This document shows, piece by piece, positions 8,180-11,596 of a stretch of DNA of 64,000 nucleotides. Under the pieces are notes generated by a model. That model did not search any database and was not told the DNA's origin. It saw nothing but the letters and a program-made list of their open reading frames with translations. The DNA is taken from the IMG/VR virus record IMGVR_UViG_3300021365_000007; one strand, 5' to 3'. Numbering within the stretch: the first letter of the stretch is position 1; each line of letters begins with the position of its first letter. The translations under genes were made by a program, and so were the position numbers. Source of the DNA: an uncultured virus (IMG/VR IMGVR_UViG_3300021365_000007). Taxonomy: Duplodnaviria; Heunggongvirae; Uroviricota; Caudoviricetes.

Positions 8180-10051
8180 TTATTTCTCCCATGTTTTCGA
8201 TATGTTTGTGTCTGCTTTAAGCAAACCATTAGGTATAATTACTTTAGCAGCCTTCTCCATGAGCTCAGTCATCTTGACTGACCATGCTTCAGCTACATCT
8301 TCTTTACACACACAATCAATCTGATCGTGTACAGTCATAATAATCTTCACAGTATCTGACCATGACTCTTCTATCTCTCTATGTATATAAATAAGAGCCA
8401 GTTTAGTCATGTCAGCAGATGAACCTTGAATTGGGGTATTCTTAGATGCACGCTCGATACTACCAAGCTCCATCATCTTACTCCTGTCATCATACATTTT
8501 AGGGTACCAGCTATCAAACCAACGCCTCCTGTAAAAGGGAGCAAAGGTTTGTATATAACCATTACGTTTACCATATGTACCAAGTTTCTCTAGAAATGCC
8601 CTGATATTAGGGAACTCTGTAAAGTATTTCTCTATAAGATCTTGTGCTTGCTTCTTAGTTATCTGTAAAGTATCAGCTAATTTGAAAGGACCCATTCCGT
8701 AGGCCAAACCGAAGTTGATAGCTTTGATTTGGGTTCTAAGCTTTTTCCGTGCACTAGCGTCAGCATCTCGCCATTTATCTTCAAATACGAGATCTGCACA
8801 TACTCCGTGTAAGTCCATGCCTTTGGACAAAGCATCAAGCCACACTGGATCTTGACTCCCGTATGCAATGACATTTAGTTCCTGACTAGAGTAATCACTG
8901 GATACAAAGACCCATCCCTCTTCAGTAATGAAACAGTTTCGAAAGGTATTATCGCTGGGAATCTGTTGCATGTTAGGTTTACTAGAAGAGACTCTCCCTG
9001 TATCAAGTATTTGTGAGAAATTTGTATGGACTCGTCCATCAGCGTTGACGTAATTGAAGAACTTAGTACCGTAGGCATTTGCGAGTTTGGTTCTTTCCTT
9101 ATAGCGTATATATTCATCGATTAATTTGTGTTTGTACCTGTGTTTATTTAAGTTCTTTCCGTTAACATCCTCAAGACTTGGCACTAAGTTCTTGAATAGT
9201 CTGAGTGTTTGCATAGGGGAACCCCAATTGATAGCAGTATGTCTTACCTCTTCAATAGGAGCAAACATGTCTGCTTGTATTGGGATACGATAGTGTTGTA
9301 ACAAATCATGTTCCAATACCATATTATCTAACTGTAACTCCTGTTCATATGCCAGCTTGACGTTTTTCTCTGCCATAACTGTCCATTTATCCTTATCAAT
9401 AGCTAAGCCTTCGTATTCTATTTCAGCAAATACTTTAACTACCTCATTCTCAAGACGGGCAGTCTGTTCCAATTGATGCGTACGTAACGACGGTAATTGT
9501 TTTTCCCTGATGTCAAGCAGATAAATAACATCGTTTGCCCCATAGGTAATCTGATCGATCGTATATGGTTGACCCGTGAGCCCAATGAACTTATTTCTCG
9601 TCGTCTTATCCAAATTAATACTGAGGTACCTATCGACACACCTTGCGAGTGAGTAACCGTAGTCTTGTTTACCGCAATTGATAACTCTTTCCGTAAGAAA
9701 CGTATCGTATATGTTTTTGACATCGATGTTTGCCCATCGCTTGATGAATTTATAATCGAACTTTGCGTTATGAAATATCTTAATAATTTTCTCATCTTCT
9801 AATATATCTTTTAGTGGAGTAACATCCACAACACGTGTGTCTATCACATATTGTCTATCCTTATCCCCAATCTGAAGCATTATCATCTTCTTACAAGTGA
9901 AGTCAAAGCCTTCTGTTTCTGTGTCTACCCCAAGAACAGGTTTGTCCTTACAATATGACACACAGTCATCAATTGTTGTTACTTGAATCGTCGACGTGTT
10001 CAATAGAGCGTTCTGCCCTATGAATCTTATCTTGTTTGAATTGTTCATCAT
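8180..10051 (-). CDS. polA: DNA polymerase family A with 3'-5' exonuclease
   Basis: Exonuclease DTET and HNAKFD; TGRVSS, motif A DYSSQE, motif B RTQIKAINFGLAYG (Phe at the 762-equivalent), motif C VHDQ. Start probably MM at 10051 (ORF track uses 10078). Confidence 0.95.
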   Translation of the reverse strand: MMNNSNKIRFIGQNALLNTSTIQVTTIDDCVSYCKDKPVLGVDTETEGFDFTCKKMIMLQIGDKDRQYVIDTRVVDVTPLKDILEDEKIIKIFHNAKFDYKFIKRWANIDVKNIYDTFLTERVINCGKQDYGYSLARCVDRYLSINLDKTTRNKFIGLTGQPYTIDQITYGANDVIYLLDIREKQLPSLRTHQLEQTARLENEVVKVFAEIEYEGLAIDKDKWTVMAEKNVKLAYEQELQLDNMVLEHDLLQHYRIPIQADMFAPIEEVRHTAINWGSPMQTLRLFKNLVPSLEDVNGKNLNKHRYKHKLIDEYIRYKERTKLANAYGTKFFNYVNADGRVHTNFSQILDTGRVSSSKPNMQQIPSDNTFRNCFITEEGWVFVSSDYSSQELNVIAYGSQDPVWLDALSKGMDLHGVCADLVFEDKWRDADASARKKLRTQIKAINFGLAYGMGPFKLADTLQITKKQAQDLIEKYFTEFPNIRAFLEKLGTYGKRNGYIQTFAPFYRRRWFDSWYPKMYDDRSKMMELGSIERASKNTPIQGSSADMTKLALIYIHREIEESWSDTVKIIMTVHDQIDCVCKEDVAEAWSVKMTELMEKAAKVIIPNGLLKADTNISKTWEK

Positions 10052-10211
10052 ACATAAATAATAATATTTGGTTTGCATCTGCTATAGAGTAAGACTTACC
10101 AAGAAAAGATACATCTTCCCTGTTAGAATCTTTACTAGCTTTAATCAATCTGCGTAGTAAATCTACGTTGTTGTTGCGGATTATCTCCGCAATCTGTTTC
10201 ATTTTACCCAT
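9969..10211 (-). CDS. Hypothetical protein
   Basis: 80 aa starting MGKMKQI; overlaps the polA start. Confidence 0.6.
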   Translation of the reverse strand: MGKMKQIAEIIRNNNVDLLRRLIKASKDSNREDVSFLGKSYSIADANQILLFMYDEQFKQDKIHRAERSIEHVDDSSNNN

Positions 10212-10231
10212 TTTAAACTTGTTTGATATTA

Positions 10232-10313
10232 ATAGTCACCGTTATAGGAGTCGAACCTATTATATCTTAACTAAACTTCACTAAAATTAAGTATACTAAC
10301 CACTAGACGGTGA
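10232..10313 (-). ncRNA. tRNA-like element 1 (non-canonical cloverleaf)
   Basis: TCACCGT/ACGGTGA outer stem, AGTGGTT D-like loop, ~11-bp arm in place of the anticodon arm, ATAGG-TTCGACT-CCTAT T arm, 3' CTATT. Confidence 0.7.
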
Positions 10314-10342
10314 GAAAAGGGTGAGCTGTTACACTCACCCTT
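10314..10342 (-). terminator. Hairpin after the 10353-10934 gene
   Basis: AAGGGTGAG/CTCACCCTT 9-bp stem with a short U-rich tail on the minus strand. Confidence 0.6.
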
Positions 10343-10352
10343 AGTTTTGTAC

Positions 10353-10934
10353 TTACGACATAATCTCTCCTGTCGTAACATTCACATTCTGAGCAGCAAT
10401 GATACCACCTGTTGTTGCAGGTGCATCGCTCTCAAGGAACGTGTGCTGGGCTTCCCCGCTAACAACTTGAGTGTTAGCAAAGATGTACATACCCTGATGT
10501 GTGATGTAATCACCATCCTTTCCACGACGCTTCGCAGCTGTCTCAATGTTCATCGACTGGTACTCCGATGGCTCAGTTGATTCGTTCACTTGTACGTGAA
10601 GAACTGTGCCACCCATACTAGGGTTAAGAACATTCAACGGCTTGATATCTCTACCACGCTCGTCTGTCGTGTAACCTGATGATAAATCAACACCCAAGAT
10701 TTCAGCTGCATCAGCTGGCTCACAAGTAAGCCAAGCACGACGTGCCCCACCTTGAGAGAATCTCTCATCAGATTTGTTAAACATACCCAATAGGTTATTG
10801 CTTGATGATCCACCTTCAAGGCGTTCAGCAACTTCCAATTGGATTTTACCATTAGCTACTCTTCGTGAAGACACGAGCAAGCTATCTCCTGGATTTAGGG
10901 TATCCAGAGAACCACTGTTTAATGTATTTTCCAT
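10353..10934 (-). CDS. Hypothetical protein flanked by the two tRNA-like elements
   Basis: 193 aa, beta-rich, frequent CGT/GGT codons as in the capsid gene. Confidence 0.85.
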   Translation of the reverse strand: MENTLNSGSLDTLNPGDSLLVSSRRVANGKIQLEVAERLEGGSSSNNLLGMFNKSDERFSQGGARRAWLTCEPADAAEILGVDLSSGYTTDERGRDIKPLNVLNPSMGGTVLHVQVNESTEPSEYQSMNIETAAKRRGKDGDYITHQGMYIFANTQVVSGEAQHTFLESDAPATTGGIIAAQNVNVTTGEIMS

Positions 10935-10997
10935 GATGTTATGGTGTATTACATGTATTTAAATGTTGGAGACTATTAATGGTCGTCTCCTTAACCA

Positions 10998-11086
10998 ATA
11001 GTTACACGTAGGGGAGTCGAACCCCATTGCTATTCTCTATGCGCAAAGAATAACAATCCATTCGGAACCACCCGAATTACGTGTAA
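10998..11086 (-). ncRNA. tRNA-like element 2 (non-canonical cloverleaf)
   Basis: TTACACGTA/TACGTGTAA, ATTCGG-GTGGTT-CCGAAT, 11-13-bp long arm, GGGG-TTCGACT-CCCC, 3' CTATT. Confidence 0.8.
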
Positions 11087-11092
11087 TACCAA

Positions 11093-11410
11093 CTAGTTCG
11101 CCCATCTTTCATTAAGGAACTCATCAGTTGGGTACTTGATTCTATATAAATAGTCATCAAAGTTATCGTGATCAACTGCCATTGTAAGACGTGTATTATT
11201 ACGACGAACAACTATATTAGACATCTCTACCTTTATTGTGTCTACATTACAAGTAGATAAATTGGTGACAACTATATGACGCATACCGTTAATGAACTGA
11301 CATAAATGTTCTTCATCATTATCATCTTCGATAGAACCAAAGTAACCACACTGAGTGTACCCAATTAAGGATACACTCATTAGTATAGTAAGTAAGAGAG
11401 AGTATTTCAT
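11093..11410 (-). CDS. Secreted hypothetical protein
   Basis: Signal-peptide-like MKYSLLLTILMSVSLIGYTQ. Confidence 0.75.
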   Translation of the reverse strand: MKYSLLLTILMSVSLIGYTQCGYFGSIEDDNDEEHLCQFINGMRHIVVTNLSTCNVDTIKVEMSNIVVRRNNTRLTMAVDHDNFDDYLYRIKYPTDEFLNERWAN

Positions 11411-11596
11411 TTAGCTGTTAGTATTAAGTGCTTTAACTATTTCTTCAAGCTTAATTTCTTCTAGATTTAATGCATCTACTTCTTTACGTATCTGAGTAAT
11501 TCTATTTAATGAATCATCTCTAAGCTTTGATTGATTAGTAAGATGCTGATTGTAATCTTGTTGGATTGGGGTTAACTGAATGTTTTTCGTATTCAT
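11411..11596 (-). CDS. Small coiled-coil protein (61 aa)
   Basis: Likely start MNTKNI at 11596 after TTAAACTTTACAAT; the upstream extension in the track lies in structured RNA. Confidence 0.7.
   Translation of the reverse strand: MNTKNIQLTPIQQDYNQHLTNQSKLRDDSLNRITQIRKEVDALNLEEIKLEEIVKALNTNS

What the first reader, a model, noticed from the sequence alone, without database searches (positions are those of the whole stretch)
10232..11086. Pair of non-canonical tRNA-shaped elements bracketing one gene
Seen: two minus-strand elements (10236-10313 and 11002-11086) with different stem sequences but the same loops and layout: GTGGTT D-like loop, GG-TTCGACT-CC T loop, 12 nt from T loop to an A discriminator (5+7 and 4+8), and the same 3' CTATT. 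Neither has a 7-nt anticodon loop; each has an ~11-13-bp arm. This amounts to covariation within one genome. Known: RNase P, RNase Z and the CCA-adding enzyme recognise the elbow and the 12-bp acceptor-T helix. Inference: these are processing signals that cut out the 10353-10934 mRNA, stable tRNA-mimic RNAs, or decoys for tRNA-targeting defences.
Basis: partly seen in the sequence, partly recalled or inferred. Interest (0 to 1): 0.85.

Follow-up and report, generated by a model that had tools for sequence, protein, structure and literature searches.

The report
tRNA-shaped cut marks around a phage gene
Two tRNA-shaped RNA elements without a working anticodon arm flank one strongly expressed gene of a marine crAss-like phage, and they most likely serve as cutting signals that release that gene's messenger RNA from a longer transcript.

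Summary
Both elements are real (minus strand, 10313-10236 and 11086-11002). They are tRNA-derived but are not ordinary tRNAs. Rfam's tRNA model misses both. ARAGORN calls only element A, as a weak tRNA-Thr(AGU).

Relatives of the bracketed 193-aa gene came from 79 viral and 40 metagenome loci. Many carry tRNA or tRNA-like genes in the same two slots.
- At least 27 of 92 distinct loci have one within 130 nt downstream of the gene.
- 8 of 98 have one within 120 nt upstream.

Across these elements the acceptor stem, T arm and D elbow are kept by compensatory changes, while the anticodon arm is replaced by anything from an 8-22-nt loop to a 14-bp hairpin or a branched domain. In other relatives a twister-like ribozyme sits in the upstream slot.

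In the window there is no room for promoters between the elements and their neighbours. Metatranscriptome contigs cover only 10367-10991, which is the gene plus a conserved 5' pseudoknot.

Best reading (about 0.5): tRNA-derived processing signals ("t-elements") cut by host RNase P and RNase Z, excising a stable mRNA. No RNA ends or cleavage were measured. This is a new variant of a known kind.

The parts
11002..11086 (-). Element B, the upstream tRNA-like element. Acceptor 5' strand 11086-11078, D arm 11077-11060 (6-7 bp, loop UGGU within GUGGUU), long arm 11057-11026 (14 bp), T arm 11025-11011 (4 bp plus UUCGACU), acceptor 3' strand 11010-11002. Read either as 8/4 with U-1:A73 or as 9/4.
   Evidence: Sequence. 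MFE -36.8 kcal/mol, z = -5.3. Family alignment of 4 sequences: 7 of 33 pairs have changes on both sides. No Rfam tRNA hit. The L001 homologue scores 31.4 bits on tRNA-Sec, below the gathering score of 47.
10997..11001 (-). CUAUU trailer after element B. Its last U (10997) is the first base of the pseudoknot.
10968..10997 (-). H-type pseudoknot in the 5' leader of the 193-aa gene. S1 is UGGUU/GACCA and S2 is GGAGAC/GUCUCC. It is followed by a 33-nt A/U-rich leader.
   Evidence: Found in 40 of 85 distinct leaders of relatives, with 12 distinct S1 and 16 distinct S2 sequences, against 0-3 per 85 in 20 shuffle rounds. RNA contigs reach 10991.
10353..10934 (-). The bracketed gene: 193 aa, conserved, function unknown.
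   Evidence: ORF. No Pfam, PHROG or NCBIfam family. Alignment of 11 relatives. AF2 model pLDDT 74 with no convincing fold match. Metatranscriptome contigs from 4 runs cover 10367-10991.
10317..10342 (-). G+C-rich hairpin 12 nt after the stop codon (core GGGUGAG...CUCACCC, 10340-10319). It is followed by UUUUC, which runs directly into element A.
   Evidence: the same hairpin-then-element layout is seen in relatives
10236..10313 (-). Element A, the downstream tRNA-like element. U-1 plus acceptor 5' strand 10313-10307, D-like GUGGUU region 10306-10297, central arm 10296-10262, T arm 10260-10244, unpaired A 10243, acceptor 3' strand plus A73 10242-10236.
   Evidence: Sequence. ARAGORN tRNA-Thr(AGU), a weak call. 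No Rfam hit. Family covariation: 12 of 17 pairs have changes on both sides.
10231..10235 (-). CUAUU trailer after element A. The next ORF starts 24 nt after A73.
11093..11410 (-). Upstream 105-aa ORF. Its stop codon lies 6 nt before element B, so there is no room for a promoter or terminator.
   Evidence: its C-terminal coding sequence is conserved next to the first tRNA-like element in L018 and L120
8180..10211 (-). Downstream genes on the same strand: an 80-aa ORF (9969-10211) and family A DNA polymerase (8180-10078).

Best explanation
Elements A and B are tRNA-derived 't-elements'. They keep the acceptor/T-arm coaxial helix, the T loop and a D-loop GG elbow. These are the parts that RNase P, RNase Z and the CCA-adding enzyme recognise (established knowledge, recalled). 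They have lost a decoding anticodon arm.

Both lie inside one minus-strand polycistronic unit: 105-aa ORF, B, pseudoknot, 193-aa gene, hairpin, A, 80-aa ORF, PolA. The proposed mechanism is as follows.
1. Host RNase P cuts at the 5' side of each element.
2. A 3' endonuclease (RNase Z or similar) cuts after A73.
3. The 193-aa gene's mRNA is released with a compact pseudoknot near its 5' end and a G+C-rich hairpin at its 3' end.
4. The expression and stability of that mRNA are thereby uncoupled from the flanking replication genes.

Shown here: the anatomy, the synteny, the covariation, the twister-like ribozyme found in the upstream slot in other relatives, and RNA contigs limited to the bracketed stretch. 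Inferred, not shown: co-transcription, the cuts themselves, and the enzymes responsible.
For: 1. Anatomy. Both elements have U-1, a 12-nt run from the T loop to A73 (all 12 positions paired in B, 11 in A, where C7.A66 mismatches), a UUCGACU T loop, a GG-containing D loop, and A73-C74. Canonical tRNA-Arg and tRNA-Lys genes (5 of the 7 checked) elsewhere in relatives' contigs share the U-1/A73/C74 context; the 2 tRNA-Met genes have C-1.

2. Tight packing on one strand. The gaps are 6 nt from stop codon to B, 4 nt from B to the pseudoknot, 5 nt from hairpin to A, and 24 nt from A to the next ATG. No Bacteroidota-type TAnnTTTG lies between 11086 and 10934 on the minus strand (the motif is recalled).

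3. Synteny. A tRNA or tRNA-like gene lies within 130 nt downstream of the gene in 27 of 92 distinct loci, and within 120 nt upstream in 9 of 98, one of which is spurious. These are lower bounds, because L119's downstream element was missed.

4. Selective constraint.
- In 8 A-family members, 97.6% of cells pair, against 36-44% when partners are slid. 12 of 17 pairs change on both sides. 0 of 500 shuffles reach this.
- The D stem was not used to find the elements, and all 4 of its pairs show changes on both sides.
- Across 38 elements each acceptor position shows 4-6 pair types (these were selected for pairing, so this is not an independent test).

5. The anticodon arm is unconstrained in form.
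- One canonical tRNA-Thr(UGU) occurs at this slot (L068).
- Members scoring 52-58 bits on Rfam tRNA have 8-22-nt loops and are called 'tRNA-???' by ARAGORN.
- Others have 9-14-bp arms, branched domains, or are 48-67-nt minis.
- Loop sequences differ between close relatives: UUAGUAA against UUGUGAU.

6. Ribozyme in the same slot. Twister-P1-like ribozymes (52-59 bits, E 1e-9 to 1e-11, below the gathering score of 67.2) lie 46 nt upstream of the gene in L013 and L034. By motif, 9 of 98 leaders have one, and 7 of the 8 with both flanks also carry a downstream tRNA-like element.

7. RNA. Contigs from 4 metatranscriptome runs in 4 studies, 93-96% identical to the window, cover only 10367-10991. None covers the elements or the neighbouring genes.

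8. Precedent. Plant mitochondrial t-elements at mRNA 5' and 3' ends (PMC1920247, abstract read).
Against: - No RNA end, cleavage or CCA addition was observed. Contigs cannot show true ends, and the RNA runs were found with this gene, so absence over the neighbours is weak. The contigs are from relatives whose flanks may fall below the 90% cut-off.
- Only two such elements exist in 64 kb, so this is not genome-wide punctuation.
- 59 of 89 distinct relatives with both flanks have neither a tRNA-like element nor a twister at the gene. The signals are therefore dispensable.
- In L015 and L112 the B-type element lies 501 nt upstream, with another small ORF in between.
- Element A is the weakest member of its family: a 3-nt deletion, a C7.A66 mismatch, and z = -0.9.
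- The hairpin before A could be an efficient terminator, in which case A would need another source of transcription.
- Phage promoters of this group are unknown, so internal promoters cannot be excluded.
- The constant scaffold with variable or bulged arms could mean that the RNA itself is the product.
Confidence: 0.5

Rival explanations
1. The excised tRNA-shaped RNAs are themselves the functional products. On this reading the tRNA frame is a stable scaffold, processed, CCA-tailed and nuclease-resistant, that displays a variable central arm. The arm could be a protein-binding hairpin, a regulator, or a host-specific decoy. The flanked gene merely supplies strong transcription. This is compatible with processing also taking place.
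For: - The B' family has a constant scaffold with a hypervariable arm tip in close relatives.
- L018, L122 and L123 share an arm design of a 9-10-bp stem, a one-base 3' bulge and a 6-7-nt loop, with compensatory changes. This is my reading.
- The apical loops of the B family share GCAUA.
- Elements of this kind also occur in tandem upstream arrays in L018-L020 and L123.
Against: - No arm motif is shared across families.
- Arm length ranges from none (48-58-nt minis) to branched domains.
- The arms of A and B have no complementarity beyond chance 10-11-mers elsewhere in the window.
- A twister ribozyme, which displays nothing comparable, can occupy the upstream slot.
Confidence: 0.2
2. They are tRNA pseudogenes in decay, relics of a phage tRNA gene (perhaps tRNA-Thr) with no present function.
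For: - A canonical tRNA-Thr(UGU) occupies the downstream slot in L068, and ARAGORN reads Thr(AGU) in A and in L002.
- Element A has a deletion and a mismatch relative to its family.
- Many relatives lack the elements.
Against: - Decay would not maintain pairing by double changes in the acceptor, T and D stems. 12 of 17 pairs do so, and the D stem was not part of the search criteria.
- Decay would not keep the T loop invariant in 38 of 38 elements.
- B folds far better than shuffles, z = -5.3.
Confidence: 0.1
3. They are working tRNAs of unusual shape: A as tRNA-Thr(AGU), B as a tRNASec-like or allo-tRNA-like 8/4 or 9/4 species used in phage translation.
For: - ARAGORN calls A as Thr(AGU) with a 7-nt loop and U33.
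- L017 and W share an AGU in a 7-nt loop, and L122/L123 show GGU.
- 8/4 tRNAs are known in phages (PMC5389517, abstract and one passage read).
- The L001 homologue of B scores 31.4 bits on Rfam tRNA-Sec.
Against: - B has a single 14-bp hairpin with a 4-nt loop in the MFE fold (6-10 nt if the weak closing pairs open) where an anticodon arm and a variable arm should be.
- Arms in the A family are 9-11 bp, whereas known active tRNAs have 5-6-bp anticodon stems and 7-nt loops (PMC7609411, passages read).
- The putative anticodon changes between close relatives: AGU, GUG, GGU, GUA.
- Rfam tRNA gives no hit on A or B at E <= 10.
- The tRNA-Sec score is below the gathering score.
Confidence: 0.07
4. 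They are decoys that absorb host tRNA-targeting defence nucleases or toxins.
For: They have an overall tRNA shape with an intact elbow and acceptor. They are embedded in an early/replication module.
Against: Known anticodon nucleases read the anticodon loop (recalled). Here that region is the least conserved part, and it is absent in the mini forms. No defence or anti-defence gene was identified nearby.
Confidence: 0.06

Closest known systems
t-elements of plant mitochondria (Forner et al. 2007, PMC1920247; abstract read)
   Same: tRNA-like structures next to mRNA 5' or 3' termini, proposed as cis-signals for RNase P and/or RNase Z. They are not decoding tRNAs.
   Different: Here the setting is a dsDNA phage of (probably) Bacteroidota. 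The elements bracket one gene in particular. They are paired with a 5' pseudoknot and a 3' hairpin, and a twister-like ribozyme takes the upstream place in other relatives. Cleavage is not shown here.
tRNA punctuation of mitochondrial polycistronic transcripts (recalled; the papers listed were seen only as a search listing)
   Same: tRNAs embedded between coding regions are excised, and that excision defines the mRNA ends.
   Different: Mitochondrial punctuation uses working tRNAs throughout the genome. Here there are two non-decoding elements around one gene in 64 kb.
MALAT1/mascRNA tRNA-like 3'-end processing (PMC8457004, listing and start of abstract only; details recalled)
   Same: A tRNA-like element just downstream of a protective RNA structure; RNase P cleavage would create the mature 3' end of the upstream RNA.
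   Different: That is a eukaryotic nuclear lncRNA protected by a triple helix. Here the transcript is a phage mRNA and the structure is a simple hairpin.
8/4 and 9/3 'allo-tRNAs' and tRNASec-like tRNAs (Mukai et al. 2017, PMC5389517; abstract and one passage read)
   Same: Element B has a long acceptor stem and short T stem (8/4 or 9/4) and a 6-bp D stem with a 4-nt loop. Such acceptor branches occur in phage tRNAs.
   Different: Those tRNAs have an anticodon arm with a 7-nt loop and a long variable arm. B has a single 14-bp hairpin with a 4-nt loop in the MFE fold (6-10 nt if the weak closing pairs open).
Twister-P1 ribozyme (Rfam RF03160)
   Same: It occupies the upstream slot of the same gene in relatives L013 and L034. 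It would also generate a defined 5' end that carries a compact structure.
   Different: It is not present in the window. The hits are below Rfam's gathering score (52-59 against 67.2). It is self-cleaving rather than enzyme-dependent.
T4 gene 32 translational operator (PMC535899; passages read)
   Same: This concerns the pseudoknot, not the tRNA-like elements. Both have a roughly 28-30-nt pseudoknot at the 5' end of the leader followed by an unstructured A/U-rich stretch up to the start codon, in a gene of a replication module.
   Different: The 193-aa protein has no detectable similarity to gp32 or to any SSB. The leader has one UUUAAAU rather than repeated UUAAA. Autoregulation is untested.

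Membership tests
Canonical decoding tRNA | 12-bp acceptor/T coaxial stack with a standard T loop and D-loop GG | tested here: met
   A is 7/5 with a C7.A66 mismatch. B is 8/4 (or 9/4 with U-1:A73). Both have the UUCGACU T loop and GUGGUU.
Canonical decoding tRNA | 5-bp (at most 6-bp) anticodon stem with a 7-nt loop, U33 and purine 37 | tested here: not met
   B has a 14-bp arm with a 4-nt loop in the MFE fold (6-10 nt if the weak closing pairs open). A reaches a 7-nt loop only in ARAGORN's alternative fold, which has a U.U mismatch; its MFE fold has an 11-bp arm and a 12-nt loop. The size rule is taken from PMC7609411.
Canonical decoding tRNA | Score at or above Rfam RF00005 gathering score (29 bits) | tested here: not met
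   No RF00005 hit on the window at the gathering score, nor at E <= 10 in 10150-11200. More distant slot-mates do score 52-58 bits.
Canonical decoding tRNA | Anticodon conserved among orthologues | tested here: not met
   Loops of syntenic relatives read AGU, GUG, GGU and GUA. Others have 8-22-nt loops that ARAGORN calls 'tRNA-???'.
tRNA-Sec / allo-tRNA (8/4, 9/4, 8/5) | Extended acceptor with shortened T stem, and a 6-bp D stem with a 4-nt loop | tested here: met
   Element B has a 9-bp acceptor, a 4-bp T stem, and a 6-7-bp D stem with loop UGGU.
tRNA-Sec / allo-tRNA (8/4, 9/4, 8/5) | Both an anticodon arm (7-nt loop) and a long variable arm between the D and T arms; Rfam RF01852 at or above 47 bits | tested here: not met
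   Only one hairpin lies between the D and T arms. The L001 homologue scores 31.4 bits, E 0.02. There is no hit on the window.
t-element / tRNA-like processing signal | tRNA-like acceptor/T/elbow module without decoding capacity, under selection | tested here: met
   Covariation in the acceptor, D and T stems, with an unconstrained central arm.
t-element / tRNA-like processing signal | Element abuts a mature mRNA terminus | tested here: inconclusive
   RNA contigs from 4 runs span 10367-10991, ending 11 nt from B's 3' end and 14 nt inside the gene's 3' end. Contigs cannot define ends.
t-element / tRNA-like processing signal | Cleavage by RNase P at the 5' side and RNase Z at the 3' side | not testable with these tools
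   This needs end mapping or in-vitro cleavage.
T4 gene 32-type operator (for the pseudoknot only) | 5' pseudoknot plus an unstructured A/U-rich leader; the regulated protein is an ssDNA-binding protein that binds its own leader | tested here: inconclusive
   The pseudoknot and A/U-rich leader are present and conserved. The protein's fold and function are unresolved; the best structural matches have Z <= 3.2.

The most novel reading that the evidence does not exclude
In marine crAss-like phages, tRNA-derived t-elements and twister ribozymes may be interchangeable 'end-definition cassettes'. On this reading they cut one highly expressed mRNA out of a replication operon and leave it capped by a conserved pseudoknot and closed by a hairpin. 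That would be a bacterial-virus counterpart of organellar tRNA punctuation. The excised tRNA frames may additionally serve as natural scaffolds that display fast-evolving arms.
Probability: 0.3. Interest if true: 0.75.

Novelty: new variant of a known kind. Interest (0 to 1): 0.6.

Why it matters
If correct, this shows that a dsDNA phage uses tRNA mimicry for messenger RNA processing rather than for decoding. Such processing has so far been documented mainly in organelles and for a few eukaryotic long non-coding RNAs.

It would explain a class of 'tRNA-???', pseudo-tRNA or uncalled tRNA-like genes in viral metagenomes, which inflate or confuse phage tRNA counts.

It also links three kinds of structured RNA at one locus: a tRNA-like element, a twister ribozyme and a pseudoknot. 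That gives a natural system for asking why self-cleaving ribozymes are common in phages.

I found no description of this arrangement. The searches were 'tRNA-like' + 'crAss-like' + 'phage' (1 unrelated paper), 'tRNA punctuation' + 'phage' (organelle papers only among the 10 listed of 30). The library holds open-access papers only.

Tried and rejected
- **Whole genome of the window.** None is held. The nearest record, G001, lacks this region.
- **Cultured relatives.** blastn of 9900-11500 and tblastn of the 193-aa protein against GenBank phages found no match, so no annotated relative exists.
- **Function of the 193-aa protein.** Nothing usable came from any of these:
  - Pfam, PHROGs and NCBIfam gave nothing.
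  - A PDB profile search gave E >= 0.19.
  - Foldseek returned only GFP-like noise.
  - The VIA wide search gave Z <= 3.2, small beta-barrels including an SSB-like PrgE.
  - The ESM Atlas returned only unnamed clusters.
  - The SSB idea therefore stays a guess.
- **Intron reading.** ARAGORN with introns and low thresholds builds a tRNA-Ile with a 100-nt intron out of B's 3' half. I rejected this as an artefact.
- **Single alignment of all 38 elements.** MAFFT did not keep the 5' strands in register. I counted the acceptor pairs in a script anchored on the T loop instead, and used the tool only on an 8-member A-family alignment.
- **Pseudoknot alignment.** A4 had a register shift, so I used a script search with shuffles.
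- **Antisense targets.** The arms of A and B match the rest of the window only at chance-level 10-11-mers.
- **Promoters.** The sigma-70 scan is at the chance level (5 found, 6.8 expected). TAnnTTTG is not enriched (75 found, 75.4 expected). The one copy 79 nt before B lies in conserved coding sequence.
- **Ribozymes downstream.** Twister-looking sequences downstream of the gene in L058, L059, L061 and L079 gave no Rfam hit at E <= 0.01.
- **RNA coverage.** The lack of RNA-contig cover over the elements and the neighbouring genes proves nothing on its own.
Full report
**What is there**

On the minus strand, element B (11086-11002) and element A (10313-10236) flank a 193-aa ORF (10934-10353). 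Both carry GUGGUU in a D-like loop and GG-UUCGACU-CC as the T arm. Both have 12 nt from the T loop to an A, and both are followed by CUAUU.

The 11-mer GGTTCGACTCC occurs only at these two places in the window at up to 1 mismatch. The expectation is 0.32, and 5 of 100 shuffles give 2 or more.

- **Element B folds convincingly.** MFE is -36.8 kcal/mol against -19.8 for shuffles, z = -5.3, and 0 of 200 shuffles fold as well. It has a 9-bp acceptor, a 7-bp D stem with loop UGGU, a 14-bp arm with a 4-nt loop, no variable loop, and a 4-bp T stem.
- **Element A folds weakly.** z = -0.9, and 34 of 200 shuffles fold as well. It has a 7-bp terminal helix, a 10-nt unpaired D-like stretch, a 4+7-bp arm with a 12-nt loop, a 5-bp T stem, and one unpaired A before the 3' acceptor strand.

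**How tRNA finders read them**

ARAGORN calls one gene in the whole window. It is element A, called tRNA-Thr(AGU), 78 nt, through a fold with a 3-bp D stem, a U.U mismatch in the anticodon stem and a C.A mismatch at 7:66. With introns allowed and lowered thresholds it also assembles an implausible tRNA-Ile with a 100-nt intron from B's 3' half.

Rfam finds nothing in the window at gathering scores. In 10150-11200 at E <= 10 there is no tRNA-clan hit. The best hit on B is Tymo_tRNA-like at 15.4 bits, E = 2.

The observation therefore stands. These are tRNA-shaped elements that fail as tRNAs in the anticodon region.

**The genome**

- The window has 37.6% G+C.
- The large terminase is closest to crAss-like phages, at 41-44% identity, with 158 matching records.
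- Portal and major head proteins match PHROG families. The minus-strand block holds Sak4-like, DnaB-like, helicase and family A polymerase genes.
- DNA and RNA runs that hold the stretch are marine.
- No cultured relative has the region or the 193-aa protein.
- The protein has no family and no convincing fold match.

**Relatives**

Searching with the 193-aa protein and its alignment gave 13, then 79 viral loci, and 40 metagenome loci. I scanned them for a T arm followed by a perfectly paired acceptor. I also ran ARAGORN and Rfam on them.

*Downstream slot.* This is the space between the gene's hairpin and the next ORF. It holds a tRNA or tRNA-like gene in 27 of 92 distinct loci. That is a lower bound, because L119 has one with a single acceptor mismatch that the scanner missed.

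- Close relatives carry 72-119-nt elements of the A family. They have U-1, a 7-bp acceptor, one linker base, a 4-bp D stem with loop AYGG, a central arm or branched domain, a 3-5-nt linker, and a 4-5-bp T stem followed by A73-C74.
- More distant relatives carry genes that Rfam scores as tRNA at 52-58 bits (7 slot-mates among 20 loci searched). ARAGORN labels these 'tRNA-???' or assigns odd anticodons, because the loop is 8 to 22 nt.
- L068 has a canonical tRNA-Thr(UGU) in this slot.
- L076 has a 48-nt acceptor/T minihelix with a small hairpin.

*Upstream slot.* It holds tRNA-like elements within 120 nt in 9 of 98 distinct loci. One of these, L034, is a spurious call that overlaps a ribozyme. 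They fall into three groups:

- the B family (W/L151, L112, L119, L015);
- a B' family with a constant scaffold and a hypervariable arm tip (L017-L020, L116, L120, L121, L123, L124);
- 58-67-nt minis (L123, L020).

Several relatives have arrays of two to four such elements.

**Selection**

*A family.* I aligned 8 A-family members. I left out the 96-119-nt members and the canonical-D group, because their centres do not align. On this alignment:

| Measure | Observed | Control |
|---|---|---|
| Cells forming standard pairs | 97.6% | 36-44% with partners slid by 1-3 columns |
| Pairs with changes on both sides | 12 of 17 | none of 500 shuffles reaches this |

The D stem played no part in finding the elements, and all 4 of its pairs have double changes.

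*B family.* Only 4 sequences are available. 7 of 33 pairs change on both sides.

*All families together.* I passed 38 elements to this count: 36 of the 44 scanner hits plus the two window elements. I dropped 4 near-duplicates, 1 exact duplicate of window element B (L151), 2 canonical upstream tRNAs and 1 spurious call. Every acceptor position shows 4-6 pair types, and 448 of 456 cells pair, against 60% after shuffling the 3' halves. That set was selected for pairing, so the diversity of pair types is informative but the percentage is not.

*Central arm.* By contrast, the central arm has no common form. Where a 7-nt loop can be drawn, it differs even between close relatives: UUAGUGA in W, UUAGUAA in L017, UUGUGAU in L118, AUGGUUA in L122, GGGUAAA in L018. 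The stems are 9-14 bp long, whereas active tRNAs have 5-6 bp (PMC7609411, passages read). A decoding role is therefore very unlikely for B and unlikely for A.

**Context in the window**

Everything lies on one strand and is tightly packed:

- The 105-aa ORF ends 6 nt before B.
- B is followed after 4 nt by an H-type pseudoknot (10997-10968).
- A 33-nt A/U-rich leader runs from the pseudoknot to the ATG.
- 12 nt after the stop codon comes a G+C-rich hairpin (10342-10317).
- The hairpin's UUUUC tail runs into A.
- 24 nt after A73 the next ORF begins, followed by PolA.

No space is left for promoters between these parts. Neither the sigma-70 scan nor TAnnTTTG gives anything above chance there. 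The simplest reading is a single transcript from which the elements must be cut out.

Canonical tRNA-Arg, -Met and -Lys genes found elsewhere in relatives' contigs mostly share the same U-1/A73/C74 context (the 2 tRNA-Met genes have C-1). This suggests the odd elements enter the same maturation route.

**Ribozymes in the same place**

In L013 and L034 a twister-P1-like RNA lies 46 nt before the ATG, where the other genomes have the pseudoknot preceded by a tRNA-like element. It scores 52.1 and 59.4 bits, with E = 6.5e-9 and 7.8e-11, below the gathering score of 67.2. L038 and L044 have one about 570 nt upstream.

By a motif taken from these hits, 9 of 98 distinct leaders have it. The only locus scored as having both a twister and an upstream tRNA-like element is the spurious L034 call. 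Of the 8 twister loci with both flanks available, 7 carry the downstream tRNA-like gene. These loci are related, so the counts are not independent events.

A self-cleaving ribozyme and an RNase P/Z substrate have one thing in common: each makes a defined cut.

**RNA evidence**

Six metatranscriptome runs hold part of the stretch. I laid four of them, from four studies. Their contigs are 93-96% identical and cover 10367-10991 only, which is the gene and most of the pseudoknot leader. Nothing covers the elements, the upstream ORFs or PolA.

This fits an abundant separate mRNA bounded by the two elements, but it is weak evidence for four reasons:

- contigs do not show ends;
- the runs were found with this gene;
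- the flanks of these relatives may differ by more than the 90% cut-off;
- such libraries usually lose small RNAs.

**Conclusion**

The best-supported explanation (about 0.5) is that A and B are tRNA-derived processing signals. RNase P would cut at their 5' sides and a 3' endonuclease after A73. This would free the 193-aa gene's mRNA with a pseudoknot at its 5' end and a hairpin at its 3' end, and would separate it from the replication genes.

The closest precedents are plant mitochondrial t-elements (PMC1920247, abstract read), mitochondrial tRNA punctuation, and the MALAT1 mascRNA (the last two recalled).

The rival explanations are, in order: the excised RNAs are functional products in their own right (0.2); pseudogene decay (0.1); unusual working tRNAs (0.07); and decoys (0.06). 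The first of these does not exclude processing.

**The pseudoknot**

The pseudoknot deserves separate attention. It is present in 40 of 85 distinct leaders, with 12 distinct S1 and 16 distinct S2 sequences, at a fixed 22-38 nt from the ATG. Shuffled leaders give 0-3 per 85 in 20 rounds.

Its layout resembles the T4 gene 32 operator, which is a roughly 28-nt pseudoknot followed by an unstructured A/U-rich leader (PMC535899, passages read). The 193-aa protein could therefore be an autoregulated nucleic-acid-binding protein. Nothing in the protein analyses confirms this.

Noticed in passing
window 10968-10997 (minus): A conserved H-type pseudoknot lies in the 5' leader of the 193-aa gene. It occurs in 40 of 85 distinct leaders of relatives with extensive compensatory variation, against 0-3 per 85 in shuffles. 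It has no Rfam family. [quoted passage not shown]
   Followed up: partly
L013:2897-2955, L034:2397-2455, L038:1865-1929, L044:1429-1493: Twister-P1-like ribozymes (52-59 bits, E 1e-9 to 1e-11, below the gathering score of 67.2) lie upstream of the same gene in relatives. In L013 and L034 they sit exactly where the window has the pseudoknot.
   Followed up: partly
L047:3483-3698: Group I intron hit above Rfam's gathering score (53.2 against 50), about 1.8 kb downstream of the gene and probably inside the polymerase region.
   Followed up: no
L003:2710-2940 and L005 likewise: A G+C-rich, apparently structured insert of about 230 nt lies between the B' tRNA-like element and the pseudoknot. There is no Rfam hit at E <= 0.1.
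   Followed up: no
window 9969-10211 (minus); L005:3665-3940: A conserved ORF of about 80 aa (MGKMKQIA...) overlaps the start of the PolA ORF by about 110 nt in the window; L005 has the same arrangement with an overlap of about 44 nt. It is either a separate small gene or a conserved frameshift into the polymerase.
   Followed up: partly
L038, L044, L046, L052-L054, first ~55 nt after the gene's stop codon: A conserved nested-hairpin element (CCCCUG...CAAGG AGCGAAA CCUUG CAGGGG) follows the stop codon directly. It has no Rfam hit at E <= 0.01 in those loci that were searched.
   Followed up: no
L017:2121-2206, L018:2331-2434, L019:2103-2206, L020:2102-2211, L120:830-936, L124:668-746: The B' family of tRNA-like elements has an almost invariant scaffold, but the arm tip differs completely in length and sequence between close relatives.
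   Followed up: partly
L093 (minus, ~1330-1440), L097:1410-1520, L061:4021-4203: Class-II-like tRNA-shaped genes (TAGTCAGGTGGC..., 8/5) with aberrant central regions sit next to canonical tRNA-Arg. ARAGORN does not call them.
   Followed up: no
L037:3118-3201: The downstream tRNA-like gene carries a 12-nt tandem duplication (AUUAUAACUAA x2) in its anticodon arm. This is one visible route by which the arm is remodelled.
   Followed up: no
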